This document shows, one piece after another, positions 8,998 through 38,676 of a stretch of 64,000 nt of DNA. The DNA is taken from positions 2,080,001 to 2,144,000 of the forward strand of contig CAVRAY010000001.1 in the NCBI GenBank assembly GCA_963719225.1, written 5' to 3'. The notes beneath the pieces are model-generated. The model was given only the letters and a program-made list of their open reading frames with translations, had not been told where the DNA came from and did not search any database. This DNA comes from Thermoanaerobaculia bacterium (GTDB lineage: Bacteria > Acidobacteriota > Thermoanaerobaculia > UBA5066). Every line of letters starts with the position of its first letter. Within the stretch, counting starts at the first letter, position 1. The position numbers and the translations under genes are program-made.

Positions 8998-9789
8998 CTA
9001 AAGCTCCGTGCCAAAGGCCGGATCCTCCAGCAGCCGGCGATTGAAGTCCGCGATCCGCCCGAGCATTTCGGTCGGGCGCGCGCACGGCCCGCCGTCGAGC
9101 GTGACGATCGGCGTCGCCATCGTCAACGAGCCGAGGAGAATCGAACCCGCACGGAGGTTTTCCGCGTTCAGCGGCGCCGAGGCGGCGTGGCCGCCGAAAA
9201 AGGCCGCCGCGGTGACGCTGGGGAGGACCCCTTTCGGCGCGAGGACCGGCGTGCCGCCGTTCCAGGCGGCAAGTCCCGTCGTCGTGCCCTCGAGGTAGTT
9301 CCCATCCGGTGAGCGGAACAACCCCTCGTCACCGCCGGCTTTCTTCGCGAGACGCCCCCCCTGGATCGCCGCGAAGTAGCTCGTGGATTTCACGCCGGGC
9401 GTGTCCCGTTGAAGCTCGAAGGGCAGAGAAATGCAGTGCGAGCCGCTCCTGCGGACGAGACGGCTCTCGGGAATCGGCAGGATGTGTGCCTCGAGGCGGT
9501 ACGACGCCGGCTCGTCCACGTCCTCGCCCTCGGCGAACCACGTGAGCCGCAGCGCGCGCTGTTCCGCCGGCTTGGAGGGCGACGCGTCGAGGACGGATTT
9601 CGCGGCGGCGTTGAGCCTTTCGCGCGAAGGTTTCGGGAGGTCGTGCTCCGAGAGGATGCGGTGCATCCGGTCGAGGTGCGGCTCCCACAGGACGGCGCGC
9701 CGCCCGGCGAGGAGAGCCGTTTCGAAGAAACCGAAGCCGCGCTGTACGGCGGGCGAGAGAAACGGGACCGGCGCGTATTCAGGGCTCAC
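8998..9789 (-). CDS. Class IV aminotransferase, probable aminodeoxychorismate lyase (PabC-like)
   Basis: RGFGFFET, HLDR, KSTSY, DEGLF, EGTTT, VLPSVT; directly downstream of pabB; GTG start inferred. Confidence 0.75.
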   Translation of the reverse strand: MSPEYAPVPFLSPAVQRGFGFFETALLAGRRAVLWEPHLDRMHRILSEHDLPKPSRERLNAAAKSVLDASPSKPAEQRALRLTWFAEGEDVDEPASYRLEAHILPIPESRLVRRSGSHCISLPFELQRDTPGVKSTSYFAAIQGGRLAKKAGGDEGLFRSPDGNYLEGTTTGLAAWNGGTPVLAPKGVLPSVTAAAFFGGHAASAPLNAENLRAGSILLGSLTMATPIVTLDGGPCARPTEMLGRIADFNRRLLEDPAFGTEL

Positions 9790-10987
9790 GTCGCACCTCC
9801 GGCTCGCCGAGCGCCGCCATCGCCGCCTCGAATTCCCGCGACTTCGCCTCCGTCTCGCGCCACTCGGCCTCCGCGTTCGAGTCCCACACGATTCCGCCTC
9901 CCGCGTGGTAGTCCACTGTATCCCGGCCGAGGATCGCCGTCCGGATCGCGACGTTGAAAACCGCCCGGCCGTCGCCGCGCACGAATCCCGTGGCTCCGCA
10001 ATACGCGCCGCGCGGCACCGTCTCAAGGTCGCGGATGAACCGCAGCGCCGCGCGCTTCGGCGCCCCCGTGATCGAGCCTCCGGGCAGCGTCGCGCGGAGG
10101 ACGTCGGAAAGCCGCACCTCCGGCCGCAAGCGCGCCTCCACCGTGGATTCCAGGTGATGCAGGTGGCGGAAGGACGTCAGCGTCCTCAGCGCGGTCGTCT
10201 CGACCTGCCCCGGCTCGGCCACCTTGCCGAGATCGTTCCTCAGGAGGTCCACGATCATCACGTTTTCGGCGGCGTCCTTAGGGGAAGTCAGAAGTTCACG
10301 GCGCCGGGCGGCGTCCTCGGCCTCCGTCGCGCCGCGGCCGATCGTGCCCTTGATCGGCTTCGTGACCGCGCGCCGCGCCGCGAGATCCACGTCGAGGAAC
10401 AGCTCCGGCGAGTTCGAGACGACGGCCCAGTCGTCCTCGGCGAGCGTCATGGCGAAGGGCACGGGGTTGTCGCGGTAGAGGGCATGTGCGAGGGCAACGG
10501 GCTCGACGCGTCCCGCGAAGCGCGTGCGGCGCGAGAGATTGACTTGATAGACGTCGCCGCGGGCGATCCCGGCGCGGATGGCCTCGACACCTCTCCTCCA
10601 TGAGTCCGAGGAGAGCACGCGCTCCGCGCGTGCCGGTTCTTTGAAGGTGAATAAAGAAGATTCGGATGGGGATGGCGGCGCGGAACGTTGGACGCCGGAG
10701 CGGCGGCCATCGAAAACGGAGAATTCTGCGAAGGGAAGAAATTCATGCTGCCTGACGAGCCCCGTCGAGCCTTCGAGGAAAACGCCCGCTTCGTAGGAAA
10801 TGAACCCCGCGGCGATGAGGTTCGGATCGCCTGACTCTGCGATTTCGTCCAGCGACGCGAGCACGTCGGGCAGCTGCCGAGGAGTTTCGGCGCGCAGGAT
10901 TCTTTCTTCACCTTCTAAGAAAATCCCGGGTCCTCTTCCCTCTCCCAGTCCCCACCCCTCCCCGTTGAAGAGAACGTTCATGGTCAT
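9779..10987 (-). CDS. pabB: Aminodeoxychorismate synthase component I
   Basis: GDVYQVNLS, SPELFL, PIKGT, KDAAENVMIVDLLRNDLG, PGGSITGAPK, NVAIRT. Confidence 0.85.
   Translation of the reverse strand: MTMNVLFNGEGWGLGEGRGPGIFLEGEERILRAETPRQLPDVLASLDEIAESGDPNLIAAGFISYEAGVFLEGSTGLVRQHEFLPFAEFSVFDGRRSGVQRSAPPSPSESSLFTFKEPARAERVLSSDSWRRGVEAIRAGIARGDVYQVNLSRRTRFAGRVEPVALAHALYRDNPVPFAMTLAEDDWAVVSNSPELFLDVDLAARRAVTKPIKGTIGRGATEAEDAARRRELLTSPKDAAENVMIVDLLRNDLGKVAEPGQVETTALRTLTSFRHLHHLESTVEARLRPEVRLSDVLRATLPGGSITGAPKRAALRFIRDLETVPRGAYCGATGFVRGDGRAVFNVAIRTAILGRDTVDYHAGGGIVWDSNAEAEWRETEAKSREFEAAMAALGEPEVRREP
10898..10960 (-). repeat. Purine-tract/GATTTCTTNGAAAGG motif copy inside the pabB 5' end
   Basis: Minus strand reads GGGAGAGGGAAGAGGACCCGGGATTTTTCTTAGAAGGTGAAGAAAGAA; core 10911-10926. 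Confidence 0.55.
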
Positions 10988-25313: not shown

Positions 25314-25931
25314 CTAGAAGCCTTCGAGGATCGTCGTGACGAGGTTCTGCGCGAACGGGCGGGCCATCGCCTCGATCGCCTCGCGCTCGCGGTCGTAATA
25401 CGAGCTCGCGCTCGAGGGCACGGTGTAAGGCTGCCGGAAGAGGTATGCCGGCTCGGAGAAGATCGGCTTGTCGGTGGCCTTTTCGGTCAGGACGAGCTTT
25501 CCCGAGACCGTCACCTGGTATTCGACCGCGATCCCGTTCGCGTCGAAGCGGACGGGCGCAACCGAGCAGGACGTCAGCCGCCCCGACAGCTCGGAGTCCG
25601 CCGCGGCCCTGTCGGACACGGGCTTGAGACGGCCGCGCGCGGACAGCTCCCGAATGACGGCGTCCGTGAGGCGCTGCTCGAGCCCCACGACCGTCGTGTC
25701 GTTGATGAACGTCGGCACATAAACCGTCTTGACGCCGACCGGCAGCGCGCTCGTCCCGGTGCCCACGAGCGAGTACCCACAGCCGGAAACGGAGAATAGG
25801 AAAATGATCAAGAAAGAGAAGAGAAAGACTTCTTTGAAAGGGGAAGTACCCGGAGCGCGGCACCGGCCGCGCGGTGCGACGGACGTCCGCCCGCGACCAC
25901 TCGAAGAATCTTCTCTTCCTTCTTCCGTCAC
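25314..25931 (-). CDS. lptE: LptE-family LPS assembly lipoprotein
   Basis: Lipobox [21 protein letters not shown]; immediately downstream of leuS (known leuS-lptE synteny); GTG overlapping the leuS stop taken as start. Confidence 0.8.
25810..25926. repeat. Convergent pair of the purine-tract motif in the lptE 5' end
   Basis: + core AAGACTTCTTTGAAAGGGG 25825-25843; - core GAAGATTCTTCGAGTGG 25913-25897; purine tails point outward. Confidence 0.75.
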
Positions 25932-28540
25932 TTGACGACCAGATTCAGCAGTCGGTCCTGCACCCAGATGGTCTTCACTATTTGCTTGCCGTCCAGCCAA
26001 CGAGAGAGCGTCGCCTCATCCTGAGCCGCGGCTACCGCTTCCTTCTCAGAAGATCCTCTTCGAAGCTTGATCTCGGCACGTACCTTTCCCGACACCTGTA
26101 TTGCAATCGACGCGACCTCCTCTTTCGCGAGCGCGGGATCGAAGCTCGGCCAGCCCGACTCGAGGAGGCTCTTCCTGCCGCCCAGCCTCTCGTTCAACTC
26201 TTCGGAGAGATGCGGCGCGACGGGATGGAGGAGCGTCACGAGCGTGCGCAGCGTCGTTGCGGTCTCGCCCGCGTCCGCGCCCGCGTCGTTCAGAAGGACC
26301 GTCGCGCCGTTGAGGAATTCCATGAGGTGCGCAACGGCCGTGTGGAACGAGAACGCCCGGAAGTCCTCCGTGACCTTCTTGATCGTCATGTGCCGCGCGC
26401 GCGCCGCCGGGGTGTCGGCCTTCGCCGGCTGCGCCTGTGGATCGGCGCCCGTCTCGAGGAACCGCTCGACGGCGCTCCGAACGCGCCAGAGAAAGCGCTC
26501 CGGCCCGCTGATGCCCTCGTCGTTCCATTCGGCGTCCTTCTCCGGGGGGCCGAGGAAGAGGACGAACGCGCGCACGGCGTCAGCGCCCTTCTCGGCGATG
26601 AGCGCGTCGAGCGACACGGCGTTGCCGCGCGACTTCGACATCTTCTCGACGCGACCCGTCGGGGACAGACGCGTGATCATGCCCTGGTTGAAGAGGGCCG
26701 TGAACGGCTCCTCGAACGTCACGAGGCCGAGATCCTTCAGGATGCGCGTGAAGAAGCGCGCGTAGAGGAGATGCAGGATCGCGTGCTCGATGCCGCCGAT
26801 GTACTGGTCGACGGGGGCCCACTCCTTCACGAGAGAGGGGTCGAAAGGCGCCGCGGCGTTCTGCGGATCGATGTACCTCAGGAAATACCAGGACGAGTCC
26901 ACGAAGGTGTCCATCGTGTCGGTCTCGCGGCGGGCAGGCCCGCCGCACCGAGGACACTTCGTCTGCACGAAGGAAGCGACCTTCTCGAGCGGATTTCCGC
27001 CCTTGCCCGTGAACGGCGCGTCGGGCGGCAGGACGATTGGAAGGTCCTTCTCCGGTACGGGCACCCACCCGTCCTTCTCACAGTGGATCATGGGAATCGG
27101 CGTACCCCAGTAGCGCTGGCGCGAGATGAGCCAGTCGCGGAGGCGGTAGCGCACGCGGGGCCCGCCGATCCCTCTCTTCGCGGCTTCGGCGGCAATGAGT
27201 TCGCGGGCAGAAGAGGAAGATTTTGCTGAGAAGGGACCAGAGGCAATGAGGTTTCCTTCGCCCGTGTAGGCGACCGAAGGGACGTCGGCACCGCCGGAAT
27301 GAGATTTGTTCGAGTGGTCCCTCGCAGGCGCGACGCCGGAGCCCGAGGCGCCGCCCGACGCACGTGTTTCGCCCTTCCCCTTTTCCCCTCTAAGCAAATC
27401 TTCTTCTTTCTTCTTCTCTTCTTCGATCACGCGAACGATCGGGATCCCGTACTTCCTCGCGAACTCGAAGTCGCGCGTGTCGTGCGCGGGCACCGCCATG
27501 AGCGCGCCCGTGCCGTAGTCGGCGATGACGAAGTTCGCGAGCCACACGGGCACTTCCACTCCCGTGAAGGGGTTGATCGCCGTGCGGCCGGTGTCGCGGC
27601 CGTCCTTCTCGGCGCCCTCGGCCTCGCGCACGATGCGCTCCTGGCTGCGGACGGACGCGACCCAGGCTTCGAGCTCGGCCCGCTTCGGGCTGCCTTCGAG
27701 AAGCCGCGGGACGAGCGCGTGCTCGGGCGCGAGGATGAGCGCCGTCGCGCCGAAGACCGTGTCGGGGCGCGTCGTGAAAACGCGCACGGATTCGTTCAGC
27801 GAAGGGATCGCGAAATCCAGGTCGGCGCCCGTGGACCTTCCGATCCAGTTGCGCTGCATCGTCACGACTTTTTCGGGCCACTTGCCGAGCGTGTCGAGGC
27901 CGTCCAGCAGGCGATCCGCGTAGTCGGTGATCTTCAGGAACCACTGCTCGAGCTCTCGCTGCACGACCGCAGTGCCGCAGCGGTCACAGACGCCCCCCTC
28001 GGCCTGCTCGTTCGCGAGCACGGTCAGGCACGACGGGCACCAGTTCACGGCGGCCTTCTTGCGGACCGCAAGGCCCTTTTCCCAGAGCTTCAGGAAGAAC
28101 CACTGGTTCCAGCGGTAATAGTCGGGCTCGCAGGTCGTGACTTCTTTCGTCCAGTCGTAGAGGACGCCCCACGACCGGAACTGCTCCTTCATGGCCGCGA
28201 TGTTCGCGAGCGTCGACGTGCGCGGGTGGATGCCCTTCTGGATCGCATAGTTCTCCGCCGGCAGGCCGAACGCGTCCCAGCCCATCGGGCAGAACACCGT
28301 CACGCCCGTCTGTCGCAGGAAGCGATGGAGCGCGTCCGTGAGGAAATACGTGCGCGCGTGCCCGACGTGGAGGCGATCTCCCGATGGATAGGGAAGCATG
28401 ACGAGGAGATACGTTCCATCGCCCGCCGGCTGCGACGTGTCGACGAACGCCGCCCGTTCCGCCTCCCAGCGGTCGCGCCATTTCGCCTCGATCCTGAGGA
28501 TTTCTTCGCCTTTTGCCGTGGCGGTCGCGGTGCGGTCCAT
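25928..28540 (-). CDS. leuS: Leucine--tRNA ligase with a ~40 aa low-complexity insertion
   Basis: [58 protein letters not shown]. Confidence 0.97.
27209..27235 (+). repeat. Degenerate motif copy in leuS (antisense)
   Basis: AGAAGAG-GAAGATTTTGCTGAGAAGGG; encodes PFSAKSSSS on the minus strand. Confidence 0.55.
27296..27424. repeat. Convergent motif pair spanning the in-frame insertion in leuS
   Basis: + core GAGATTTGTTCGAGTGG 27301-27317; - core GAAGATTTGCTTAGAGGGG 27403-27385 with a ~20 nt pure purine tail. Confidence 0.75.
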
Positions 28541-28575
28541 CGAGTCGGCGAGTGTAAACGACGAAAGGCAGGACG

Positions 28576-29481
28576 TCAGCGGCGCGCCGGCGCGGGGGCC
28601 GCGAGCGCACGCGGGTCGAGCGGCGCCCCTTCTACGGCTTCGACGATGCTCGCTCCACGCGGCCGGTAGAGCGTCAACCCGCCCGCGGCAGTCTCGAGAA
28701 CGGGCCGTTTCAGCGCCTCCGAGCGGTCGGCCACGCCGACGTGAAAACCGGCGGGCGGCTGCGTCTCGAGCGCGAGATGCTTCGCCGTGACGGTGTTCGC
28801 GAGCCCGCTCGGGTCCGAAGGCACCCAGCCCAGACCGGGCACGAACACCTCGATCCAGCGGTGGCGCACGCCTCCGAGGTCCGCGTTGAAGACCGAGCGC
28901 GACTCGGGAGTGAGCTCTCGAGCGCGCTCGGCGGTGAGGATTCCCGTCACCTGCCGGGCGGGAATGCCCGACCGGAGGAGGAGCTCGGCCGCCAGGAGCG
29001 AGCGCCCCACGCACGAGCCCCGACGCGCGCGCAGCGTGAGAAAGGCCGTCTCCGCCGCGCCGTCCGGCAGCGCATAGCGAATCCGGCGGGCCGTGAAAGC
29101 GACGACCCGCTCCACCGCCTCGAGAGTCGTCTTCGCGCCCGCGAGGAGCCTGTTGGAGAGGACGTCGAGGTCCGGAGCGTCCGCGAGCGGCCCGGCAAGG
29201 ACCGCACGCGCTTCGGCCGAGAGGCTCGCGGGAGGCGGCGGGAATGGTGCGTCCGCCGTGAACGGCTCGGCGGACACCTCGACGCGGGCTTCCAGGGCTT
29301 TGCCGTCGGCGGACGACAGCACGACGCGATATCCCGCCTCCTCCACGGCCCGCGCATAGCGCCAGGGCGCGGGACCTTCGAGCCGGTAACGTGCCCATTC
29401 CCCTGCGGCGGGCGCGTCCTGGCCCGCGGCCGGAATGGGAACCGCAAAGGCGAGCGCGAGGAGGAGGGCGCGCGACGTCAT
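28576..29481 (-). CDS. Secreted transglutaminase-like (Cys-His-Asp) protein
   Basis: Signal peptide; [34 protein letters not shown]. Confidence 0.85.
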
Positions 29482-29918
29482 CCGCCCCCTCCCCCGATCC
29501 GGGCACGCGGGCCGAACGTGGCCCGGCGTATACCGTCGAGGACGCCGTTCACGAAAGGCCCCGAGGACGGCGTGGAAAACTTCTTCGCGATCTCCACGGC
29601 CTCGTCGATCACGACGGGGTCTGGGGTGTCCTCCTCGTAGAGGAGCTCGTAGAGCGCGAGCCGCAGGAGATTGCGGTCCACGGCAGCCATCCGCCCGAGG
29701 CGCCAGTGCTCCGAGCGCTCGGAGAGCTTCGCATCGAGCTCGTCGCGCCGCGACAACGTGCCCGTGACGAGGCGCTGGGCGTACTCCTGGACCTCTGGTC
29801 TCGCGATCACGTACTCCTCGGTGCGCTCGAACATCTCTTCGGGCGGCGTCCCGGCGAGATCGTTCTGATAGAGAAGCTGAAGCGCCAGCTCTCGGGACTT
29901 TCGCCGGCGGCCGCTCAC
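29478..29918 (-). CDS. nusB: Transcription antitermination factor NusB
   Basis: [43 protein letters not shown]; downstream of ribH. Confidence 0.95.
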
Positions 29919-29938
29919 GCGCGTCCTCCGCCCGGCTT

Positions 29939-30436
29939 TCAGCGCGCGGGGCGCGAAGTGCGAGCCGACGTCTTCTTGAGGCGAGCCCGGAGGTCGGCGG
30001 CCTCGACGGCGGCCATCGCGGCCTCGAAGCCCTTGTTCCCGCCCTTGGCGCCCGATCGTTCGAGCGCCTGTTCGAGCGTGTCGCACGTCAGGACGCCGAA
30101 CGCGACGGGAAGGTCGAGCTCCAGGGAAACCTGGAAGACGCCCTTCGCCGTCTCCCCCGCAACGTATTCGAAATGCGGTGTGCCGCCCCGGAGGACCGCG
30201 CCAAGAGCCACGAGCGCGTCGAACCGGCCGGAACGGGCGAGATCGCGGAGGGCGAGCGGAAGCTCCCACGCACCGGGCGCACGCACGAGAACGACGTCTT
30301 CGTCGGCGGCCCCGGTCCTCCGAAACGCGTCGAGGGCACCCTCGACCAGGCGCGAGACGACGAGGTCGTTCGTACGTGCCGCCACGACGCCGAAGCGCCG
30401 GCCCGCGGAGGAAAGATGCCCCTCGATCACGTTCAT
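29939..30436 (-). CDS. ribH: 6,7-dimethyl-8-ribityllumazine synthase
   Basis: PGAWELP, LGAVLRGGTPHFEYVA, FGVLT, GNKG. Confidence 0.95.
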   Translation of the reverse strand: MNVIEGHLSSAGRRFGVVAARTNDLVVSRLVEGALDAFRRTGAADEDVVLVRAPGAWELPLALRDLARSGRFDALVALGAVLRGGTPHFEYVAGETAKGVFQVSLELDLPVAFGVLTCDTLEQALERSGAKGGNKGFEAAMAAVEAADLRARLKKTSARTSRPAR

Positions 30437-30458
30437 CGGACCCAAGAGTGTATCAGCC

Positions 30459-31469
30459 TCAGCGCGCGGCGAGCTCGCTCACGCGCGCATGAGGTCCTTC
30501 GAAACCGAAATTCTCGCCGTAACGGGCGATGAAGTCGGCGATCCCATACCTGGGCGGCTGCGGGCCGAGGGCTTCGAGCGTGTAGACGGCGGCCACGCTT
30601 CCCACGCGGCCCGCGACCTCCCAGGGCAGACCGAGGTGGCGCGCCGCGAGAAGGCCGCCGCGAAACGCGTCTCCGACGCCCGTCGGATCCACCGCCGTGC
30701 CGCGGAGGCGGGCGGGCGGAATGCGGAACGTCGTGACGCCGTCGGGAGCCTCCGCCTGGCCGCCCCTCAGCGCGATCGTGGAGCCCTCGGCACCACGCGT
30801 CACGACGAGAACGGGCGCGTGCGAGAGCACCTCGGCTTCCGAGAGGCCGGTCTTCATCTCGATCACGCCGAACTCGTACTCGTTCGCGATGAGCATCGCG
30901 GCGCCTTGCAGCCCTGCGAGAAGGTCGTCGCCCGAAAGCCGCGCGACTTGCTGGCTGGGGTCGTATACGAATGCGATGCGGAGCTCCCGGCACTCCGTCG
31001 CGTACTTCGCCATCGCGACGGGATCGTTCGGCGAGATGATCGCGACGCTCACGCTGCTCGGCGAGAGTTCCCGGAAGGACAGCGTCGAGGCGCGTGCCAT
31101 GGCCCCGGTGTAGAAAGTCGCGATCTGGTTCTGTGCCTGATCGGTGGAGACGAAGAACGAGGCGGTGAAGAGATCGTCGCAAATGTGCAGGGCCGAAGTG
31201 TCGACTCCCTGCTCGGCGAGCCAGCGGCTGTAATCGAGCGCGTCGATACCTGCCGTCGCCATGACGAGCGGCCGGAGGCCGAGGAGCGCGAGCGTGTAGG
31301 CGATGTTCGGAGCTACGCCCCCCCGCACCTTGCGCATGGAATCCACGAGGAACGAGACCGAGAGTCGGTCCATGCGGTCGGGCACGACGACGTCGAGGAA
31401 CTTCCCCGGGAACGTCATGAGGTAGTCGTAGGCGACGGAGCCGGTGACGACGATGCGGCGAGCGGTCAT
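30459..31469 (-). CDS. PfkB-family carbohydrate/nucleoside kinase (adenosine kinase-like)
   Basis: TGSVAYD, GGVAPNIAY, DPSQQ, NEYE, DPTGVGDAFRGG; coupled to mtnP. Confidence 0.88.
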   Translation of the reverse strand: MTARRIVVTGSVAYDYLMTFPGKFLDVVVPDRMDRLSVSFLVDSMRKVRGGVAPNIAYTLALLGLRPLVMATAGIDALDYSRWLAEQGVDTSALHICDDLFTASFFVSTDQAQNQIATFYTGAMARASTLSFRELSPSSVSVAIISPNDPVAMAKYATECRELRIAFVYDPSQQVARLSGDDLLAGLQGAAMLIANEYEFGVIEMKTGLSEAEVLSHAPVLVVTRGAEGSTIALRGGQAEAPDGVTTFRIPPARLRGTAVDPTGVGDAFRGGLLAARHLGLPWEVAGRVGSVAAVYTLEALGPQPPRYGIADFIARYGENFGFEGPHARVSELAAR

Positions 31470-32368
31470 CTCTTTTCCTTGTTCAAAAGCAGCGCGAGCC
31501 GCTTCGAGGTGGCGGGAGCGATCCGGCCTCTCGGAGTGAGAACGGCGAAGTCGAGGGCGTTCGCGCAGTCGCTCGCGCGGCCGGGATCGAGGCGGCCGAC
31601 GGCGTTCGCGAGGACGCGATCCGCCGTGCCCGCGTTTTTCTTCAGGACGTCGAGGACGGCCTCGACCGAAACCGCCGCTCTTTCCTCGTGCCAGCAGTCG
31701 TAGTCCGTGACGAGCGCGATCGACGCGTAGCCGATGCCCGCCTCGCGGCACAGCTTAGCTTCGGTCGCGTTCGTCATGCCGATCACGTCTGCGCCCCAGG
31801 AGCGGTAGAGAAGCGACTCGGCCTTCGTCGAGAACTGGGGGCCCTCGATGCACACGTACGTCCCGCCCCGATGGCAAACGACGCCTTCGGCCCGGGCGGC
31901 CGCTTCGAGAGCGTCGACGAGCACGGCAGAAACCGGGTGCGCGAACGACACATGCCCCACGCAGCCGTCCCCGAAGAACGTCGAGATCCGGCGTTTGGTC
32001 AGGTCGATGAACTGTTCCGGCAGGACGATGTCGGTCGGCTCGTAGGCTTCCTTCATCGAGCCGCACGCCGACGCCGACAACAGCCATGAGCAGCCCAGCT
32101 TCCGGAATCCCCAGACGTTCGCGCGGTAGTTGATCTCGGAGGGGAGAAACGAATGATGCCGTCCGTGCCGGGCGAGAAACGCGACGGGGACCGAAGTGAG
32201 AGTCCCGAGAACGTAGGAGTCGGACGGGGCGCCGAAGGGCGTCGAAAGCCGCCGCTCCTCGAGGATCTTTAGACCAGGCAGGTTGTAGAGCCCCGAGCCG
32301 CCGATGAGGCCGATTCGCCTCTCCCCCCTCTTCCCTTTCGAAGAAATCTTCTTCTTCTCTTTCTTCAT
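31466..32368 (-). CDS. mtnP: S-methyl-5'-thioadenosine phosphorylase
   Basis: IGLIGGSG, TPFGAPS, RHGRHH..P..INYRAN, EGPQFSTKAES, GMT, TDYDCW. Confidence 0.93.
   Translation of the reverse strand: MKKEKKKISSKGKRGERRIGLIGGSGLYNLPGLKILEERRLSTPFGAPSDSYVLGTLTSVPVAFLARHGRHHSFLPSEINYRANVWGFRKLGCSWLLSASACGSMKEAYEPTDIVLPEQFIDLTKRRISTFFGDGCVGHVSFAHPVSAVLVDALEAAARAEGVVCHRGGTYVCIEGPQFSTKAESLLYRSWGADVIGMTNATEAKLCREAGIGYASIALVTDYDCWHEERAAVSVEAVLDVLKKNAGTADRVLANAVGRLDPGRASDCANALDFAVLTPRGRIAPATSKRLALLLNKEKR
32318..32366 (-). repeat. Purine-tract/GATTTCTTNGAAAGG motif copy forming the mtnP N-terminus
   Basis: GAAGAAAGAGAAGAA-GAAGATTTCTTCGAAAGGG-AAGAGGGGGGAGAGG; core 32351-32333; encodes KKEKKKISSKGKRGER. 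Confidence 0.82.
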
Positions 32369-33309
32369 CTTCCCCGCCCCATCTCCTCGAGGATGTCGAG
32401 CGCGAGCTCGAGCGCCGCGCGGCCGGCTGCGCCCGTCACTTCCGGCTCGCTGCGCTCGGCGCAGGCCTTCAGGAACGCGCCGTCCTCGGCGGTGAGCGGG
32501 TCCGCGGGCTCGACCGTCACGGGCCACGGCACGATGCGCGGCGGGCCGCTGAGCCGGTCGAGGCGGAAGGCCGTCACGTCGCGGTTCTGGGTGTCGATCG
32601 AGAAGTACCAGTCCGGCTGGAAGAAGCGGAATTTCCGCGTCTTGTCCTGCGAGACGCGCGAGGCAGTCAGGTTCGCCACGCAACCGCCCTCGAACGAAAG
32701 GCGAACCGAGGCGATGTCGATCTTCTCGCTCAGGATCGGCACGCCGACAGCCCGGATCTCCGTGACCGGCTTTCCCACGAGGTCGAGCGCGATGTCGAGG
32801 TCGTGGACGAGGAGGTCCAGGACGACGTCCACGTCGAGAGCGCGCGGCACGAAGACACCGAGCCGGTGGGCCTCGATGAACTTGACGTCCGTCACGAGGG
32901 GGCGCACCGCGGCCACCGCCGGATTGAAGCGCTCGATGTGCCCGACCTGCAGAACGCGCCCCTTTTCCCGCGCGAGAGCGACGAGGCGGTCGGCTTCGGC
33001 CAGAGTCACCGTGATCGGCTTCTCGACCATGACGTCGGCTCCGCCGGTGAGAAGCTCTTCGGCCACGCCGGCATGCGTGGAGGTCGGCGACGAGACGACG
33101 ACCGCCGTGGCGCCCGCGCTCAGGAGCTCCTTCACGGAGCGCCTCCGGACGAGCCCCTTCGACCCGTGCGCAGCCTCGATGGCGGACGCCGTGGCGTCGT
33201 CCGGCTCGACGAAGCCGACCGGGTCGGACCCGGCGAGCTCCGTGAGGATCCGCGCGTGGTGCCGGCCGAGATAGCCGCATCCCACGACGCCTGTCCGGAT
33301 TCTCGCCAT
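32365..33309 (-). CDS. Gfo/Idh/MocA oxidoreductase (possibly GnnA-like UDP-GlcNAc 3-dehydrogenase)
   Basis: GVVGCGYLG, VEKP, GHIERFNPA, DVVLDLLVHDLD, TASRVS. Confidence 0.85.
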   Translation of the reverse strand: MARIRTGVVGCGYLGRHHARILTELAGSDPVGFVEPDDATASAIEAAHGSKGLVRRRSVKELLSAGATAVVVSSPTSTHAGVAEELLTGGADVMVEKPITVTLAEADRLVALAREKGRVLQVGHIERFNPAVAAVRPLVTDVKFIEAHRLGVFVPRALDVDVVLDLLVHDLDIALDLVGKPVTEIRAVGVPILSEKIDIASVRLSFEGGCVANLTASRVSQDKTRKFRFFQPDWYFSIDTQNRDVTAFRLDRLSGPPRIVPWPVTVEPADPLTAEDGAFLKACAERSEPEVTGAAGRAALELALDILEEMGRGR

Positions 33310-33422
33310 GCGCGGCGCAGTCTAAGGGATGGTCCACGGCCGCAACATGATCAGTTGGAATCAATTGAGAGCCGGCGCCTTGCCCCGGCACGTGCTGACC
33401 GCGTAACCTCCGCGGCTTCTCC

Positions 33423-36416
33423 ATGAGCAGCCGCGACTGGAAATCCACGCTCCTCCTCCCGAAGACGGAGTTTCCGATGAAGGCGGACCTTCCGAGGCGG
33501 GAGCCCGCCCGGCTTGCCCGGTGGCAGGCGGAGGATCTCTACGGGAGGCTCCGGTCGGCGCGCGCGGGCGCTCCGCGTTTTCTGCTCCACGACGGACCGC
33601 CGTACGCGAACGGCAAGATTCACATCGGCACGGCGATGAACAAGATCCTGAAGGACCTCGTCGTGCGGACGAGGACCCTCGCGGGCCTCGACGCGCCCTA
33701 CGTGCCCGGCTGGGACTGCCACGGCCTGCCCATCGAGCTGAGCGTGGACAAGGAGCTGGGACCCAGGAAGCGCGAGATGTCCGACGTCGAGGTCCGCCAG
33801 GCCTGCCGGAAGTTCGCCGAAAAGTGGATCGACATTCAGCGCGCCGACTTCAAGCGCCTCGGGATCCTCGGCAGGTGGGACTCGCCTTATCGCACGATGG
33901 ACTTCTCCTACCAGGCCGAGATCGCGAAGGCCTTCGGCGGATTCGTGGACCGCGGACTCGTCACGTTCGGTTTCAAGAGCGTGCTCTGGTGCGTGCGCGA
34001 CCGGACCGCGCTCGCCGAAGCGGAGATCGAGTACGAGGATCGAACGGATCCATCCATCTACGTCGCGATGCCGCTGGATGAAGATTCCTCGAAAGGCGCG
34101 TGGCCGGGCCTCGCAGAGGCGGCCGGTGCGCCGCGCCTGTACGCCCTGATCTGGACCACGACGCCGTGGACGCTGCCCGCGAACAGGGCGATTACTCTTG
34201 GCAAGGAAATCGAATACATGTTTCTTAGAAGGGAATCCGAGCCAGGCGCCGCGTACATCGTCGCGGAAGCGCTCGTTCCGCAGGTGACGGCCACTCTCGG
34301 CTGGACGGACGCCTCCCCTATTCCCCTTTCTAAGAAAAGCGGCGAGGCGATTCGGGACGCCGGCCTCAAGTACAGGCGGCCGTTCGCCGAACCGTCCGAA
34401 ACCAATTTCGGATTTCTCCTCGGCGAGCACGTGTCGACGACCGACGGCACGGGCCTGGTGCACACGGCGCCCGGGCACGGCCGCGACGACTACGAGGTCG
34501 TGAGGCGGCACGGCTTCAAGGTCGACGATCCCTCCCTCTGCCCGGTCGACGAGGGCGGCTTCTACGACGTGAACGCACCGGAGTTCCTGCGCGGAAAAAG
34601 GGTGGTCATCCCGAAGACTCCCGACCAGAGCGCGAACGACGCCGTCCTGGCGGCGCTCGCCACGAGCCCGGCAGAGGCCGCTTCCTTCGCGGGACGTCCC
34701 GACAAGGATCACTCCGGCTCTCTCCTCCTTTCGAAGAAATCTCTCTCCCACTCCTATCCGCACTGCTGGCGGTGCAAGCAGCCCGTCATCTTCCGCGCGA
34801 CTCACCAGTGGTTCATCGATCTGCACGCGATCCGCGAGCAGGCGCTCCGTGAGATTCACGACCGCGTCCGTTGGGTGCCGCCCTTCGGCGAGAACCGCAT
34901 CGGCGCGATGGTCGAGAATCGCCTCGAGTGGGCGATCTCGCGCCAGCGCCGCTGGGGCTCTCCGATCACGTTCCTCCGGTGCGCGGACTGCAGGGAGAAG
35001 GGCGTGATCTCGCACTATCCCTCGGTCGAGGGAACGGTCGGAGAGAGAAAAAAGAAAGAAAGAGAAGATTTCTTTGAAAGGGTAAGAGGGACCTTCCGCG
35101 AGCACGGAGCGGACGCCTGGTACGACGACGCGTTCCCCCCGTCTTACTTTCTAAGAAAATCTTCCTCTTCTTCTTCGTCTTCCTCTGCTTCCTGCGCGCG
35201 GTGCGGCGGCAGCTCGTTCGAGAAGGTCAAGGACATCCTCGACGTCTGGTTCGACTCGGGGGTTTCGCACGCGGCCGTGCTCCGTTCGGGCGACTACGGG
35301 CTTCCGGATCCGTACACCTCCAAGCCCCCGACGCCGGTCGTCTACCTCGAAGGCCACGACCAGCATCGGGGCTGGTTCCAGTCGTCCCTCCTGACGTCCG
35401 TCGCTCTCACGGGCAGCGCGCCGTACGACGCCGTGATCACGCACGGCTTCGTCGTGGCGGGGGACGGCCGGAAGATGTCGAAATCGCTCGGAAACACGGT
35501 GGACCCGCACGACGTCATCAAGAAGGACGGCGCCGACGTGCTGCGGCTCTGGGTGGCCTCGCTCGACTACACGAACGACGATCCCGTCTCCGAGGAAATC
35601 CTCAAGCGCACGGCCGAGGCGTATCGCAAGATCCGCAATACGGCACGCTTCCTCCTGTCGAACCTCTTCGACTTCGACCCCGCGAAGGATTCCGTGGCGA
35701 AAGACCGGATCGAGCCGCTGGACCGGTACATCCTGGACGTAGCGGCGCGCGTCGCGGCGGATTGCCGGCAAGCGAACGAGGCATACGCGTTTCACGTCGG
35801 CGTGCGTCGCCTCCTCGAGTTCGTGACGTCGGATCTCTCCGCCTTCTGGTGCGACGTCCGGAAGGACGTCCTCTACATCCTCGCCGCGAACGATCCGGTC
35901 CGGCGCTCCGCGCAGACCGCCGCCCACCGCCTCGCCGAGACGATCGCGCTCGCCCTCTCACCCATCTGTCCGTTCACGGCCGAGGAAATCTGGGAAGCCA
36001 TCCCGGGGAATGCATCAGATCCGGCCGCGCTCTTCCTGAAGAGCTGGAACGACCTCGAGCTTCCCGAGATTTCTTCGCGTGAAAGAGAGGCGTGGGGACG
36101 CGTCCTCGCGCTTCGAGCGGAGTTCCTGCAGGGCCTCGAGCCGCTCCGGAGAGAGGGAAGAGTCGGTTCCGCTTCCCAGGCGACGGCGGTCGTGGGGCGA
36201 GGCGGTGCCGTCGACGAGGCGCTCGCCGCTCTTTCCTTCTCAGAAGAAAAGCTCGCTGACGTTCTTGGAACACCGTCGGTCGTGCGGGAGGGAGTGGCGG
36301 ATGCGATCGCCGTGCGTCCCGCCGAGGGCTCCAAGTGCCCGCGCTGCTGGCAGGTGCGCACGGACGTCGAGCCCGACGGAACCTGCGCGCGCTGCCGCCG
36401 TGTGGTTGGCGAGTAG
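33423..36416 (+). CDS. ileS: Isoleucine--tRNA ligase (type 1, C-terminal Zn finger)
   Basis: HDGPPYANG, HIGT, GWDCHGLPIE, WTTTPWT, GTGLVHTAPGHG, ISRQRRWG, KMSKSLGN, CPRCW...CARC; ileS-lspA synteny. Confidence 0.97.
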   Translation: MSSRDWKSTLLLPKTEFPMKADLPRREPARLARWQAEDLYGRLRSARAGAPRFLLHDGPPYANGKIHIGTAMNKILKDLVVRTRTLAGLDAPYVPGWDCHGLPIELSVDKELGPRKREMSDVEVRQACRKFAEKWIDIQRADFKRLGILGRWDSPYRTMDFSYQAEIAKAFGGFVDRGLVTFGFKSVLWCVRDRTALAEAEIEYEDRTDPSIYVAMPLDEDSSKGAWPGLAEAAGAPRLYALIWTTTPWTLPANRAITLGKEIEYMFLRRESEPGAAYIVAEALVPQVTATLGWTDASPIPLSKKSGEAIRDAGLKYRRPFAEPSETNFGFLLGEHVSTTDGTGLVHTAPGHGRDDYEVVRRHGFKVDDPSLCPVDEGGFYDVNAPEFLRGKRVVIPKTPDQSANDAVLAALATSPAEAASFAGRPDKDHSGSLLLSKKSLSHSYPHCWRCKQPVIFRATHQWFIDLHAIREQALREIHDRVRWVPPFGENRIGAMVENRLEWAISRQRRWGSPITFLRCADCREKGVISHYPSVEGTVGERKKKEREDFFERVRGTFREHGADAWYDDAFPPSYFLRKSSSSSSSSSASCARCGGSSFEKVKDILDVWFDSGVSHAAVLRSGDYGLPDPYTSKPPTPVVYLEGHDQHRGWFQSSLLTSVALTGSAPYDAVITHGFVVAGDGRKMSKSLGNTVDPHDVIKKDGADVLRLWVASLDYTNDDPVSEEILKRTAEAYRKIRNTARFLLSNLFDFDPAKDSVAKDRIEPLDRYILDVAARVAADCRQANEAYAFHVGVRRLLEFVTSDLSAFWCDVRKDVLYILAANDPVRRSAQTAAHRLAETIALALSPICPFTAEEIWEAIPGNASDPAALFLKSWNDLELPEISSREREAWGRVLALRAEFLQGLEPLRREGRVGSASQATAVVGRGGAVDEALAALSFSEEKLADVLGTPSVVREGVADAIAVRPAEGSKCPRCWQVRTDVEPDGTCARCRRVVGE
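34080..34096 (+). repeat. Motif core copy in ileS
   Basis: GAAGATTCCTCGAAAGG. Confidence 0.5.
34218..34339. repeat. Convergent motif pair in ileS
   Basis: + TTTCTTAGAAGGG 34221-34233; - TTTTCTTAGAAAGGGGAATAGGGGAGG 34338-34312. Confidence 0.62.
34718..34749 (-). repeat. Motif copy in ileS (antisense)
   Basis: GGGAGA-GAGATTTCTTCGAAAGG-AGGAGAGAG; core 34743-34727. Confidence 0.75.
35040..35191. repeat. Convergent motif pair in ileS (strongest example)
   Basis: + GAAGATTTCTTTGAAAGGGTAAGA (core 35064-35082) after a ~24 nt purine run; - GAAGATTTTCTTAGAAAGTAAGA (core 35164-35147) with a purine tail encoding poly-Ser. Confidence 0.85.
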
Positions 36417-36425
36417 AATCCAGAC

Positions 36426-36926
36426 GTGTCGCGCCGGCTCGTCTATTTCGGAATCTCGCTTGCCGTCGTGGCCCTGGACCAGATCACCAAGGCGATCGTG
36501 GCCGCGCGGATTCCGCTCCACGACACGATTCCCGTGATCCGGGGCTTCTTCGACCTCACGCACGTGAGGAATCGGGGCACCGCGTTCGGCCTCTTCGCGC
36601 TGACCGACTCGCCGGCACGCACGTTGATCCTCACGCTCGTGGCGGCGGGGGTCTTTCTCGGCGTCCTCGCGTGGTCGCTCACCTCGCCCGTCACGCACAC
36701 GCGTCTTCAGACCGCGCTCGCGCTCGTCCTGGGCGGCGCGGTGGGGAACCTGATCGACCGCGTTCGCTTTCAGTCGGTGACGGATTTCCTGCGTTTCTAC
36801 GTGGACCGGTGGGAGTGGCCGTCCTTCAACGTCGCCGACAGCGCGATCAGCGTGGGGGTCGCGCTCCTCGCGTGGGACATCTGGCGGCATCCGCAGAAAG
36901 AGCCCGAGACGTGCACCCAGAGCTGA
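36426..36926 (+). CDS. lspA: Lipoprotein signal peptidase II
   Basis: DQITK, NRGTAFG, GGAVGNLIDR, VTDF, FNVADSAI. Confidence 0.96.
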   Translation: MSRRLVYFGISLAVVALDQITKAIVAARIPLHDTIPVIRGFFDLTHVRNRGTAFGLFALTDSPARTLILTLVAAGVFLGVLAWSLTSPVTHTRLQTALALVLGGAVGNLIDRVRFQSVTDFLRFYVDRWEWPSFNVADSAISVGVALLAWDIWRHPQKEPETCTQS

Positions 36927-37693
36927 TCCACATCGGGAGCTTCGCTCTCCCGAGCTACGGCGTGATGATGGCGCTCGGGTTCATCGCGGCGTTGTGGCTC
37001 GTCAGAAGGCGCGCCCCCGCGTTCGGTGTCGCCCCGGATGCGGCCTCGGACATCGGCATCTGGCTCCTCCTCTCGGGCCTCGTGGGCGCGAAGCTCCTCC
37101 TCGTGATCGTGGAATGGCCGCAATACGTCTCGTCCTGGGGCGGCCTGAAAGACCTCGCACGCGCGGGCGGCGTTTTCTACGGAGGCCTGATCGGCGCGCT
37201 CGTGGCCACCGTCGTGCTCCTTCGCAGGCGCGAGATCCCGTTCTTCACCTTCGCCGATATCGCCGCGCCGGCCGTCGCGCTCGGACAGGCCCTCGGCCGC
37301 GTCGGCTGCCTCCTCGCCGGCTGTTGCTGGGGCCGCGAATGCGCGCTTCCCTGGGCGATCACCTTCACCGACCCGAAGGCGCACGAGAACGTCGGAGTCC
37401 CGCTCGACGTTCCCCTTCATCCGACCCAGGTCTACGAGGCCGTGGGCACGCTCGTCCTGTGCATCCTGCTCCTCGTCCTCGAGCGCCGCCGTTACTCGGG
37501 CGAGACGTTCGTACGCTATCTGTTCGGCTACGCGCTGCTCAGGTTCGTCATCGAGCTCTTCCGCGGCGACCCCCGCGGGTCGGTGTTCGGCGCGATGTCG
37601 ACGTCGCAGTTCATCGCTCTCTGCGGCGTGGCCGTGGCGGTCGTGCTCTGGGCCCTGCGCCGCAAAACGGCTCCGGCGCCCGCCGCCGCGTGA
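36911..37693 (+). CDS. lgt: Prolipoprotein diacylglyceryl transferase
   Basis: SYG, GGVFYGG, GRVGCLLAGCCWG, HPTQVYE, RFVIELFRGD; GTG start. Confidence 0.93.
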   Translation: MHPELIHIGSFALPSYGVMMALGFIAALWLVRRRAPAFGVAPDAASDIGIWLLLSGLVGAKLLLVIVEWPQYVSSWGGLKDLARAGGVFYGGLIGALVATVVLLRRREIPFFTFADIAAPAVALGQALGRVGCLLAGCCWGRECALPWAITFTDPKAHENVGVPLDVPLHPTQVYEAVGTLVLCILLLVLERRRYSGETFVRYLFGYALLRFVIELFRGDPRGSVFGAMSTSQFIALCGVAVAVVLWALRRKTAPAPAAA

Positions 37694-38676
37694 CCGGCGC
37701 GCCGCGCAGGATCCGCGCCGACCGGGGTGACGGGGGCGAGCGCCTCGACCGCGTACTGCTCCGGCACCTGAACGACCTGCCCGAGGCGTCGCGCACGAAG
37801 ATCCAGGAGTGGATCGAAAGCGGCTGTGTTTCGCTCGGAGGAAGAAAACCGAAGAAGATCTCCGAGAAGGTCAGGACGGGAGACGAGATCCAGATCCACC
37901 TTCCCGCTCCGCCCCCTCCTCGCCCCGACCTCGTGGCCCAGGACATCCCGCTCTCGATTCTATTCGAAGATTCCGAGATCCTCGTCCTCGACAAGCCTCC
38001 CGGCCTCGTCGTGCATCCCGCCGTCGGACACCGCGACGGCACGCTCGTGAACGCGCTTCTCCACCGCTCGAAGGATTGGGCCGGCCCCGCAGATCGACCC
38101 GGGCTCGTCCATCGGCTCGACAAGGACACGTCTGGGGTCCTCGTCGTCGCGAAAACCGAAACGGCAATGGCAGTTCTGGGGAGAGCAATAAAAGAGAGAT
38201 TCCTAGAAAAGGAATATCTGGCCGTCGTCTACGGGCACCCTGCCGTCCGCAAGGGAAAAATCGAGATGGGCATCCTGCGGGACCCGAGGGACCGCAAGCG
38301 CATGGCCGCCTCGAAAACCGAAGGACGTCCATCGACCACCTTCTATGAAATTCTTTCCGAATCCTCGGGCTCCCTCTCCGGTCTCTCTCTCCTGAAATGC
38401 ACCCTCGTCACCGGACGCACGCACCAGATCCGCGTCCACCTCAAGGCTCTTCACCTACCCATCGTGGGAGACCCGACATACGGCTCACCGCGGTGGAAGG
38501 GGATGAAGGTCGAGGCGCTCCGCGAGCTCTGCCGGACTTTTCCCCGCCAGGCGCTCCACTCCTGGCGCCTCACGCTTAAGCATCCGACGACGCGCGAAAA
38601 GATGAGTTTCGTCGCACCGGTGCCCGGCGACATCAAGAGTCTTCTCGAAGCAGCCGGGCTCCCGCCGCCGGTGTAA
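37690..38676 (+). CDS. rluD: RluA-family 23S rRNA pseudouridine synthase with S4 domain
   Basis: RLDR S4 domain, DKPPGLVVHP, RPGLVHRLDKDTSG, TGRTHQIRVH, RQALH. Confidence 0.9.
   Translation: MTGAPRRIRADRGDGGERLDRVLLRHLNDLPEASRTKIQEWIESGCVSLGGRKPKKISEKVRTGDEIQIHLPAPPPPRPDLVAQDIPLSILFEDSEILVLDKPPGLVVHPAVGHRDGTLVNALLHRSKDWAGPADRPGLVHRLDKDTSGVLVVAKTETAMAVLGRAIKERFLEKEYLAVVYGHPAVRKGKIEMGILRDPRDRKRMAASKTEGRPSTTFYEILSESSGSLSGLSLLKCTLVTGRTHQIRVHLKALHLPIVGDPTYGSPRWKGMKVEALRELCRTFPRQALHSWRLTLKHPTTREKMSFVAPVPGDIKSLLEAAGLPPPV
38180..38358. repeat. Degenerate convergent motif pair in rluD
   Basis: + AAAAGA-GAGATTCCTAGAAAAGG (core 38196-38212); - GGAAAGAATTTCATAGAAGG 38358-38339; local burst of A/T-ending codons. 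Confidence 0.58.

What the first reader, a model, noticed from the sequence alone, without database searches (positions are those of the whole stretch)
25810..38358. The motif recurs as convergent (head-to-head) doublets about 70-140 bp apart
SEEN: five close pairs have a + copy followed by a - copy with purine tails outward: 25825/25913, 27301/27403, 34221/34338, 35064/35164 and 38196/38358. A looser sixth pair is 10719/10926. Centre distances are roughly 70, 83, 107, 80 and 142 bp. The lptE and leuS pairs share the same variant half-site (TTCGAGTGGTC) opposite a GA(A)AGGGGAA half-site. INFERENCE: the geometry fits terminal inverted repeats of a MITE/REPIN-like unit, or paired sites for looping or wrapping by a dimeric protein. 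Variable spacing and dissimilar spacers favour paired sites.
Basis: partly seen in the sequence, partly recalled or inferred. Interest (0 to 1): 0.7.

Follow-up and report, generated by a model that had tools for sequence, protein, structure and literature searches.

The report
Facing DNA signal pairs inside genes
One group of uncultured Acidobacteria carries about 800 copies of a short one-directional DNA signal, mostly as facing pairs 70-250 bases apart, written through essential genes and densest around the replication terminus, which likely marks binding sites for a still unidentified two-headed chromosome-organising protein.

Summary
The facing pairs are real and genome-wide. The ~45-bp motif (purine tail + TTTCTTHGAADG + purine flank) has 829 sites in this 4.75-Mb Thermoanaerobaculia genome. 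At 50-250 bp there are 276 convergent pairs, 6 divergent, about 7 expected. Spacing has a floor near 68 bp, a mode near 75 and no 10.5-bp phasing. Doublets occur in 28/28 congeners, 6/8 genomes of a sister genus and 0/26 other family genomes. It is not a MITE/REPIN: the ileS spacer is native coding sequence of unchanged length, spacers are mostly unrelated, there are no target duplications, and single sites come and go alone. It is not a hairpin: arms do not covary and transcription direction is irrelevant. Density is 2.5-fold higher within 1.1 Mb of dif and centred on it; a second genome repeats this without matching differences in gene conservation. Five of the six named pairs hold; the leuS partner named is a decayed site. 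No reader protein was found. Best reading: paired sites for a head-to-head chromosome-handling complex (0.47); main rival: a bipartite DNA-uptake signal (0.23). Earlier AI notes describe the same motif in related genomes.

The parts
25807..25853 (+). Motif site, centre 25834; its tail encodes the hydrophobic part of the LptE signal peptide on the minus strand
   Evidence: 28 bits; translation
25885..25931 (-). Partner site, centre 25904 (GAGTGG variant), 70 bp from 25834, inside the in-frame N-terminal extension of lptE
   Evidence: 10 bits; spacing 70 bp in 10 of 12 orthologues with both sites
25314..25931 (-). lptE host gene; GTG start overlaps the leuS stop; 50 residues before the lipobox Cys
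27201..27247 (+). Motif site, centre 27228, written by substitution into conserved LeuS sequence; working partner of 27392 (164 bp)
   Evidence: 17 bits; present in 23 of 23 readable congeners
27283..27329 (+).
   Evidence: -3 bits here; 7-13 bits in three orthologues
27373..27419 (-). Strong site, centre 27392, in an in-frame expansion of a LeuS loop
   Evidence: 33 bits; expansion with site in 19 of 23 congeners
25928..28540 (-). leuS host gene (start from my own gene call)
34199..34245 (+). Motif site, centre 34226, in ileS
   Evidence: 24 bits
34313..34359 (-). Partner site, centre 34332, 106 bp
   Evidence: 23 bits; conserved in most congeners
34715..34761 (-). Unpaired strong site in ileS, centre 34734
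   Evidence: 29 bits
35047..35093 (+). Motif site, centre 35074, in ileS
   Evidence: 38 bits
35134..35180 (-). Partner site, centre 35153, 79 bp; tail encodes a poly-serine run of variable length
   Evidence: 33 bits; both sites in 23 of 47 aligned ileS
33423..36416 (+). ileS host gene
38177..38223 (+). Motif site, centre 38204, in a pseudouridine synthase gene (37690-38676)
   Evidence: 31 bits; Pfam PseudoU_synth_2
38326..38372 (-). Partner site, centre 38345, 141 bp
   Evidence: 14 bits
10701..10747 (+). Motif site, centre 10728, in a chorismate-binding enzyme gene (9779-10987, minus); a weaker site lies at 10641
   Evidence: 15 bits
10898..10944 (-). Partner site, centre 10917, 189 bp
   Evidence: 35 bits
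21464..21546 (+). Two tandem sites (centres 21491, 21527) with no convergent partner above 9 bits
   Evidence: 23 and 27 bits
24713..24759 (+). Unpaired site after the rpsT gene, centre 24740
   Evidence: 26 bits
32322..32368 (-). Unpaired site forming the N-terminus of a nucleoside phosphorylase gene, centre 32341
   Evidence: 32 bits

Best explanation
The motif is a strand-asymmetric DNA site present about 800 times, mostly as convergent pairs at least 68 bp apart and densest around the terminus, and each pair is likely read on double-stranded DNA by an unidentified two-fold protein complex that would organise the terminus half of the chromosome. Shown: the pair geometry, the spacing floor, the lack of phasing, independence from transcription, the dif-centred gradient, restriction to two genera, and growth of sites inside genes by substitution or in-frame expansion. 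Inferred: each site loads one half of the complex in a fixed direction; the halves need about 70 bp between site centres and meet by sliding or a flexible link over up to about 250 bp, holding a small loop or acting as a stop for a DNA-tracking motor. The protein is not identified.
For: Convergent 276, divergent 6, expected about 7. 479 of 676 strong sites have a convergent partner of 12 bits or more, versus 18 divergent and about 25 at random. Replicated in 800 kb of G049: 91 convergent, 2 divergent, 19 tandem. Spacing 5th percentile 68, median 111, 95th percentile 236; at the LeuS loop it ranges 68-170 over 19 orthologues and never falls below 68. Sense 284, antisense 276, all six frames, no G.U bias; arms do not covary. 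569 of 829 sites lie within 1.1 Mb of dif (46% of the genome) and the circular mean is 78 kb from dif, with the gradient in both coding and intergenic DNA. G049 has 41 sites per 100 kb at dif and 7.5 at parS, while orthologues there have equal protein identity (0.779, 0.784) and similar fourfold-site divergence (0.447, 0.418). dif itself lies between two doublets.
Against: No reader found. ParB2, SMC, the FimT-like pilin, ComEC and an AT-hook-like protein are also in motif-free genera; MatP and the histone fold were not found; about 600 kb of syntenic comparison gave no DNA-binding candidate. The gradient is only 2.5- to 5-fold, with many sites near the origin. Site clusters are clumped, not evenly spaced (CV 1.19 versus 0.99). 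Five of 27 congeneric dif loci have no site nearby (one is truncated). Copy number varies over tenfold between congeners. Selection on each of hundreds of sites is harder to explain than the molecular drive described for uptake sequences. Congeners are related, so they are not independent replicates.
Confidence: 0.47

Rival explanations
1. Bipartite DNA-uptake signal: the competence machinery prefers fragments with two facing sites, and biased uptake plus recombination drives sites into any tolerant position without selection on each one, as for DUS/USS.
For: Clade-restricted. Hundreds of degenerate copies, 560 of 829 in coding DNA against 90% coding overall, both orientations and all frames. 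This matches passages of PMC2817400. comEA, comEC and a FimT/GspH-like pilin are present, with a doublet just upstream of comEA.
Against: Known inverted DUS/USS pairs lie mostly in terminators (about 75-90%; passages of bioRxiv 10.1101/2025.10.24.684340), whereas 154 of 253 pairs here lie within one gene. Uptake gives no obvious reason for a dif-centred gradient. The uptake genes tested are also in motif-free genera.
Confidence: 0.23
2. Directional signals for a DNA translocase, helicase-nuclease or recombination enzyme (Chi/KOPS-like, or a two-site enzyme), with facing pairs acting on motors arriving from either side near the terminus.
For: Strong purine strand asymmetry on both flanks, no helical phasing, terminus enrichment and doublets around dif.
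Against: No polarity with replication: unpaired sites are 130 leading and 150 lagging. A KOPS-like octamer (recalled) already shows its own skew about dif. The site is much longer than Chi or KOPS (recalled).
Confidence: 0.12
3. MITE/REPIN or Rickettsia-palindromic-type element: the two sites are terminal inverted repeats of a small mobile unit inserted in frame.
For: At lptE and in the LeuS loop the sites lie in in-frame expansions absent from outgroups. A close relative replaces 131 bases at lptE with 77. One IS with 9 copies carries a single site inside one end.
Against: The ileS spacer is 26-27 codons of homologous IleS in all 23 doublet-bearing sequences and 24-27 in the 21 without sites. 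Flank repeats equal shuffled pairs (42 versus 42). Only 14 of 829 sites are in multi-copy DNA. Arms of a pair are no more alike than random arms. Single-site states exist. No Y1 transposase in G000.
Confidence: 0.05
4. RNA or single-stranded DNA hairpin: the arms pair into a 30-45 bp stem with a 30-200 nt loop that affects mRNA processing or is recognised on single-stranded DNA.
For: Any inverted pair can fold; mean arm duplex energy is about -30 kcal/mol as RNA.
Against: Real partners pair only 0.2-0.6 kcal/mol better than shuffled ones; per-segment z from -0.9 to 1.1; no wobble asymmetry, 659 versus 628; no Rfam match in window 10000-39000. Divergent pairs could also fold but are nearly absent.
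Confidence: 0.05

Closest known systems
DNA uptake sequences (DUS of Neisseriaceae, USS of Pasteurellaceae)
   Same: Hundreds of clade-specific copies, built in place inside coding DNA in several frames and both orientations, under-represented in coding DNA (PMC2817400 passages; here).
   Different: Here most sites are in convergent pairs 68-250 bp apart, usually inside genes and not in terminators; density follows dif; no uptake link is shown.
matS/MatP terminus macrodomain sites
   Same: Sequence signature of the terminus region read by a chromosome-organising protein that also unloads an SMC complex (PMC8669397 passages).
   Different: MatP not found in 5 genomes. matS is a short palindrome with a few dozen sites confined to Ter (recalled); this motif is asymmetric, paired, about 800 copies and graded over half the chromosome.
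parS/NBS sites of ParB-family clamps; dispersed half-parS sites of Pseudomonas ParB (PMC5961200, listing and abstract start only)
   Same: The core TTTC-N3-GAAR resembles the recalled TTTC-N4-GAAA core, and a second parA-parB operon lies beside dif.
   Different: That ParB has the same recognition helix in motif-free genera. One canonical parS was found, near dnaA. No paired-convergent rule is known to me for these sites.
Rickettsia palindromic elements and prokaryotic MITEs (PMC10969869 passages)
   Same: Inverted-repeat DNA found in frame in unrelated housekeeping genes.
   Different: RPEs are ~150-bp insertions encoding a conserved peptide. Here the spacers are mostly unrelated or native gene sequence and single sites turn over separately.
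Inverted ORC sites that load the MCM double hexamer (recalled, not checked in a paper)
   Same: Geometric analogy only: two asymmetric sites in inverted orientation, a minimum gap near 70 bp, tolerance of longer gaps without phasing.
   Different: Eukaryotic; no homologue was sought or found. The sites here are depleted at the origin, and the DnaA DNA-binding region is conserved in a motif-free genus.

Membership tests
MITE / REPIN / RPE | Unit is an insertion with a shared internal sequence | tested here: not met
   ileS spacer is native and of unchanged length; 187 of 253 spacers have no BLAST relative, and the largest cluster (15) is mostly kinase paralogues
MITE / REPIN / RPE | Target-site duplication | tested here: not met
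   Shared flank words of 7 or more bases in 42 of 253 pairs, 42 in shuffles; variable tails make the test blunt
MITE / REPIN / RPE | Cognate transposase (Y1/RAYT or IS with the same ends) | tested here: not met
   PF01797 not found in G000, present in two motif-free genomes; the one IS examined has unrelated ends; other IS families not examined
DNA uptake sequence (DUS/USS) | Clade-specific, strongly over-represented motif in coding and non-coding DNA | tested here: met
DNA uptake sequence (DUS/USS) | Inverted pairs lie mainly in terminators | tested here: not met
   154 of 253 pairs within one gene; 22 include a stop codon (own gene calls); no terminator scan run
DNA uptake sequence (DUS/USS) | Competence machinery with a sequence-specific receptor | tested here: inconclusive
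   comEA, comEC and pilin present; pilin and comEC also in motif-free genera; ComP family not searched
DNA uptake sequence (DUS/USS) | Motif raises DNA uptake | not testable with these tools
   Needs an experiment
matS/MatP | MatP protein | tested here: not met
   PF06303 in 0 of 5 genomes; E. coli control positive
matS/MatP | Sites concentrated at the terminus | tested here: inconclusive
   Enriched 2.5- to 5-fold and centred on dif, but not confined
ParB/Noc-family sites | ParB paralogue whose presence or specificity tracks the motif | tested here: not met
   Second ParB in all ten genera with the same recognition helix in the alignment rows seen (part of the alignment was cut from view)
KOPS / Chi | Orientation polarised by replichore | tested here: not met
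   414 plus and 415 minus sites; unpaired sites 130 leading, 150 lagging
Structured RNA or terminator | Arm covariation and transcript-strand bias | tested here: not met
Histone-wrapped particle | Histone-fold protein and periodic spacing | tested here: not met
   PF00808 in 0 of 5 genomes (one family only); a weak 30-bp period is not significant overall, p 0.42

The most novel reading that the evidence does not exclude
A bacterial convergent-site code: hundreds of oriented site pairs, written into essential proteins at the cost of amino-acid changes, each load a head-to-head complex that pins 70-250-bp loops or halts SMC or other motors across the terminus half of the chromosome. This would be a sequence-encoded, orientation-dependent architecture rule with no described bacterial precedent in the searches run.
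Probability: 0.3. Interest if true: 0.9.

Novelty: new variant of a known kind. Interest (0 to 1): 0.72.

Why it matters
Dispersed signals written into coding DNA are known (uptake sequences, matS, KOPS, Chi), but none that I know requires facing pairs with a minimum gap, no phasing and a terminus gradient. Either leading reading would be new biology: an orientation-dependent chromosome-organising system, or an uptake signal outside the two families where such signals are described. The motif also reshapes proteins, producing poly-serine runs, charged loop expansions and a roughly 30-residue signal-peptide extension.

Tried and rejected
Unconstrained EM motif search drifted to low-complexity DNA and was discarded; a core-anchored matrix was used instead. 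Reader candidates present in motif-free genera too: second ParB, SMC (41 of 49 genomes), FimT-like pilin (58 of 63), ComEC (5 of 5), a 164-residue basic protein with an AT-hook-like tail (56 of 63, no Pfam family, Atlas hits under 0.9). DnaA looked divergent but its C-terminal DNA-binding region is conserved. Four HU/IHF and six tyrosine recombinase genes were listed but not profiled. Gene-content comparison over about 600 kb each of G040 and G067 gave no DNA-binding candidate. No alternative motif in 200 kb of the G067 terminus region. Viral contigs: 9 doublet-pattern hits, all in 31-43% GC DNA and judged chance. Sequencing runs: no RNA holder listed; contigs of relatives only, no strand-switch joint among the 15 joints shown of 141, which is not evidence of absence. 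The gene-level test of site density against codon typicality is confounded, because sites lower the score. Paper searches that found no description of this motif: (open-access library only; supplements not searched).
Full report
Setting. The window is G000:C1:2080001-2144000 of a 4.75-Mb, 68% GC genome in two contigs. The closest IleS relatives are titled Thermoanaerobaculia or Acidobacteriota. dnaA is on C2 at 326 kb, the single canonical parS found is at C2 334 kb, and a dif site is at C1 2,037,568, about 43 kb before the window. The window is therefore at the terminus.

The motif. The most over-represented 10- and 12-mers are all pieces of one word; TTTCTTAGAA occurs 197 times against about 1 expected. 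A core-anchored matrix gives RRRW-TTTCTT(A/C/T)GAA(G/A/T)G-KRAA with 829 sites above 14 bits, 414 plus and 415 minus. The reversed genome gives 77, so roughly a tenth of the weaker calls may be noise. Both flanks are purine-rich on the same strand, from about -25 to +20.

Observation check. Five of the six named pairs hold as convergent pairs, at 70, 106, 79, 141 and 189 bp. At leuS the named partner (27310) scores -3 bits and is a decayed copy; the working partner is 27228, 164 bp away. Genome-wide at 50-250 bp there are 276 convergent, 6 divergent and 51 tandem pairs (two classes), against about 7 per class; 519 of 829 sites are in a convergent pair. With an extended matrix, 479 of 676 strong sites have a convergent partner of 12 bits or more within 50-300 bp, against 18 divergent and about 25 at random. 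Spacing, after dropping 14 paralogous pairs of the 93-bp cluster, has 5th percentile 68, median 111 and 95th percentile 236; intergenic pairs cluster at 68-85 bp. There is no 10.5-bp phasing (p 0.21), and a weak 30-bp period is not significant overall (p 0.42). In 800 kb sampled from congener G049 there are 91 convergent, 2 divergent and 19 tandem pairs, with the mode again at 75-79 bp.

Range. The exact 12-mer is in 18 of 18 congeners and 0 of 12 genomes of other families. A doublet pattern with a 55-85 gap is in 28 of 28 congeners (8-104 copies), 6 of 8 genomes of genus g11 (1-10 copies) and 0 of 26 other family genomes; the reversed control is 0 throughout. These genomes are related and many are incomplete.

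How sites arise. For ileS I used 48 of the 78 loci plus the window and dropped two frameshifted rows. Both sites of the 35074/35153 doublet are present in 23 of 47 sequences, one in 3 and none in 21. The distance between the two positions is 26-27 codons in all 23 and 24-27 in the 21, and the protein between them is homologous. This doublet was written over existing code, with only the tail expanding as poly-serine. In the LeuS loop (30 of 32 loci readable), all 23 congeners keep a weak site made by substitution in conserved sequence, 19 add a strong site in an in-frame expansion, and spacing runs from 68 to 170 bp, never lower. Tandem duplicates 30-42 bp apart are common. At lptE the doublet is an in-frame N-terminal extension: 45-57 residues precede the lipobox Cys in 12 genomes, against 14-26 in 15, 35 in one and out of frame in two. 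Single-site states exist, and spacing is 70 bp in 10 of 12 orthologues with both sites. Sites therefore come and go singly while the pair spacing stays at or above the floor.

Not a mobile element. 187 of 253 spacers have no BLAST relative; the largest cluster is mostly a tandem array of kinase paralogues, some clusters reflect a duplicated stretch of C2, and the rest were not examined. Flank repeats equal shuffled pairs, 42 versus 42, and only 14 of 829 sites lie in multi-copy DNA, 9 of them inside one IS whose ends are unrelated to the motif. No Y1 transposase was found in G000. The in-frame expansions at lptE and leuS leave open that some sites are copied in locally.

Not an RNA structure. 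By my own gene calls (90% coding, approximate; they mis-called the lptE start), 560 of 829 sites are coding, 284 sense and 276 antisense, in all six frames, and 154 of 253 adjacent pairs lie in one gene. There is no G.U asymmetry (659 versus 628). Arms of a pair are no more alike than shuffled partners (z -0.9 to 1.1) and pair only 0.2-0.6 kcal/mol better. Rfam gives no match in window 10000-39000.

Chromosome position. 569 of 829 sites lie within 1.1 Mb of dif, which is 46% of the genome (2.5-fold). The circular mean is 78 kb from dif, and both coding and intergenic densities fall toward the origin. Removing a probably chimeric C2 segment gives 25.9 versus 10.1 per 100 kb. G049 has 41 per 100 kb at dif and 7.5 at parS. 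Orthologues in those two regions have equal protein identity (0.779, 0.784) and similar fourfold-site divergence (0.447, 0.418), so tolerance or mutation supply does not explain the gradient; inherited sites make this only a partial replicate. dif lies between two doublets in G000, and 22 of 27 congeneric dif loci have at least one site nearby. Against a simple structural role, site clusters are clumped (CV 1.19, random 0.90-1.10), and in G050 the listed sites stay dense for about 0.7 Mb from dif up to the canonical parB and are sparse beyond it (truncated list).

None was found. A second parA-parB operon beside dif was the best lead, but it is in all ten genera with the same recognition helix. 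SMC, ComEC, a FimT-like pilin and an unnamed basic protein do not track the motif; MatP and the histone fold were not found in 5 genomes. Syntenic comparison covered only about 600 kb per genome.

Mechanism. Asymmetric sites, strict convergence, a floor near 68 bp, a tail to about 250 bp and no phasing fit two oriented binding events whose products meet head to head by sliding or a flexible link (inference). The dif-centred gradient points to a chromosome-level role (0.47). A bipartite uptake signal explains the accumulation in genes more easily but not the gradient or the intragenic pairs (0.23). A translocase or recombination signal (0.12), a mobile element (0.05) and a hairpin (0.05) fit worse.

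Literature and earlier notes. I read passages only of PMC2817400, bioRxiv 10.1101/2025.10.24.684340, PMC8669397 and PMC10969869, and the listing and abstract start of PMC5961200. Searches found no description of this motif; supplements were not searched. The ORC/MCM analogy and the matS, parS/NBS, KOPS and Chi properties not cited to a call are recalled. Four earlier AI notes describe what appears to be the same motif in related genomes and one an analogous system elsewhere. They are not independent support, and the lines shown name no reader.

Verdict. A real, apparently undescribed, clade-restricted paired DNA signal. The function is inferred, not shown.

Noticed in passing
G000:C1:2037865-2039524 (L079); L083-L112, L133-L152: A second parA-parB operon sits directly beside dif across the family; a dif-like site lies 78-429 bp after the parB end in 42 of 50 loci. 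It may be a terminus-positioning ParAB system.
   Followed up: partly
G000:C1:3836045-3836539 (L192:4046-4540, minus): A 164-residue basic protein with two apparent helical repeats and an RGRP AT-hook-like tail, no Pfam family, found in 56 of 63 family genomes. A candidate undescribed nucleoid protein; it does not track the motif.
   Followed up: partly
G000:C2 about 610-800 kb: An inverted copy of C2 7-223 kb at 75-85% identity, probably DNA of a congener joined into the assembly.
   Followed up: partly
G000:C1:2293328-2319751: A tandem array of eight or nine Ser/Thr kinase paralogues, each carrying a 93-bp doublet; the same doublet is in kinases of g11 genomes.
   Followed up: partly
G000:C1:2033786-2035122 and 8 more copies: A 1.34-kb IS flanked by CTAG carries one motif site about 82 bp inside its right end, pointing inward; IS family not tested.
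   Followed up: partly
G000:C1:2690773-2691255 and 2695187-2695693: The predicted L30 gene (Pfam) and an L29-like gene appear to have long extensions that coincide with doublets at 2691021/2691111 and 2695270/2695429; starts are my own calls.
   Followed up: no
window 39500-64000: No site above 9 bits in this 24-kb stretch of accessory-looking genes, although it lies in the dense terminus domain.
   Followed up: no
G050:C2: The second parB (beside dif) at about 107 kb and the canonical parB at about 847 kb are only 0.74 Mb apart, suggesting a rearrangement or misassembly; useful for testing whether density follows position.
   Followed up: no
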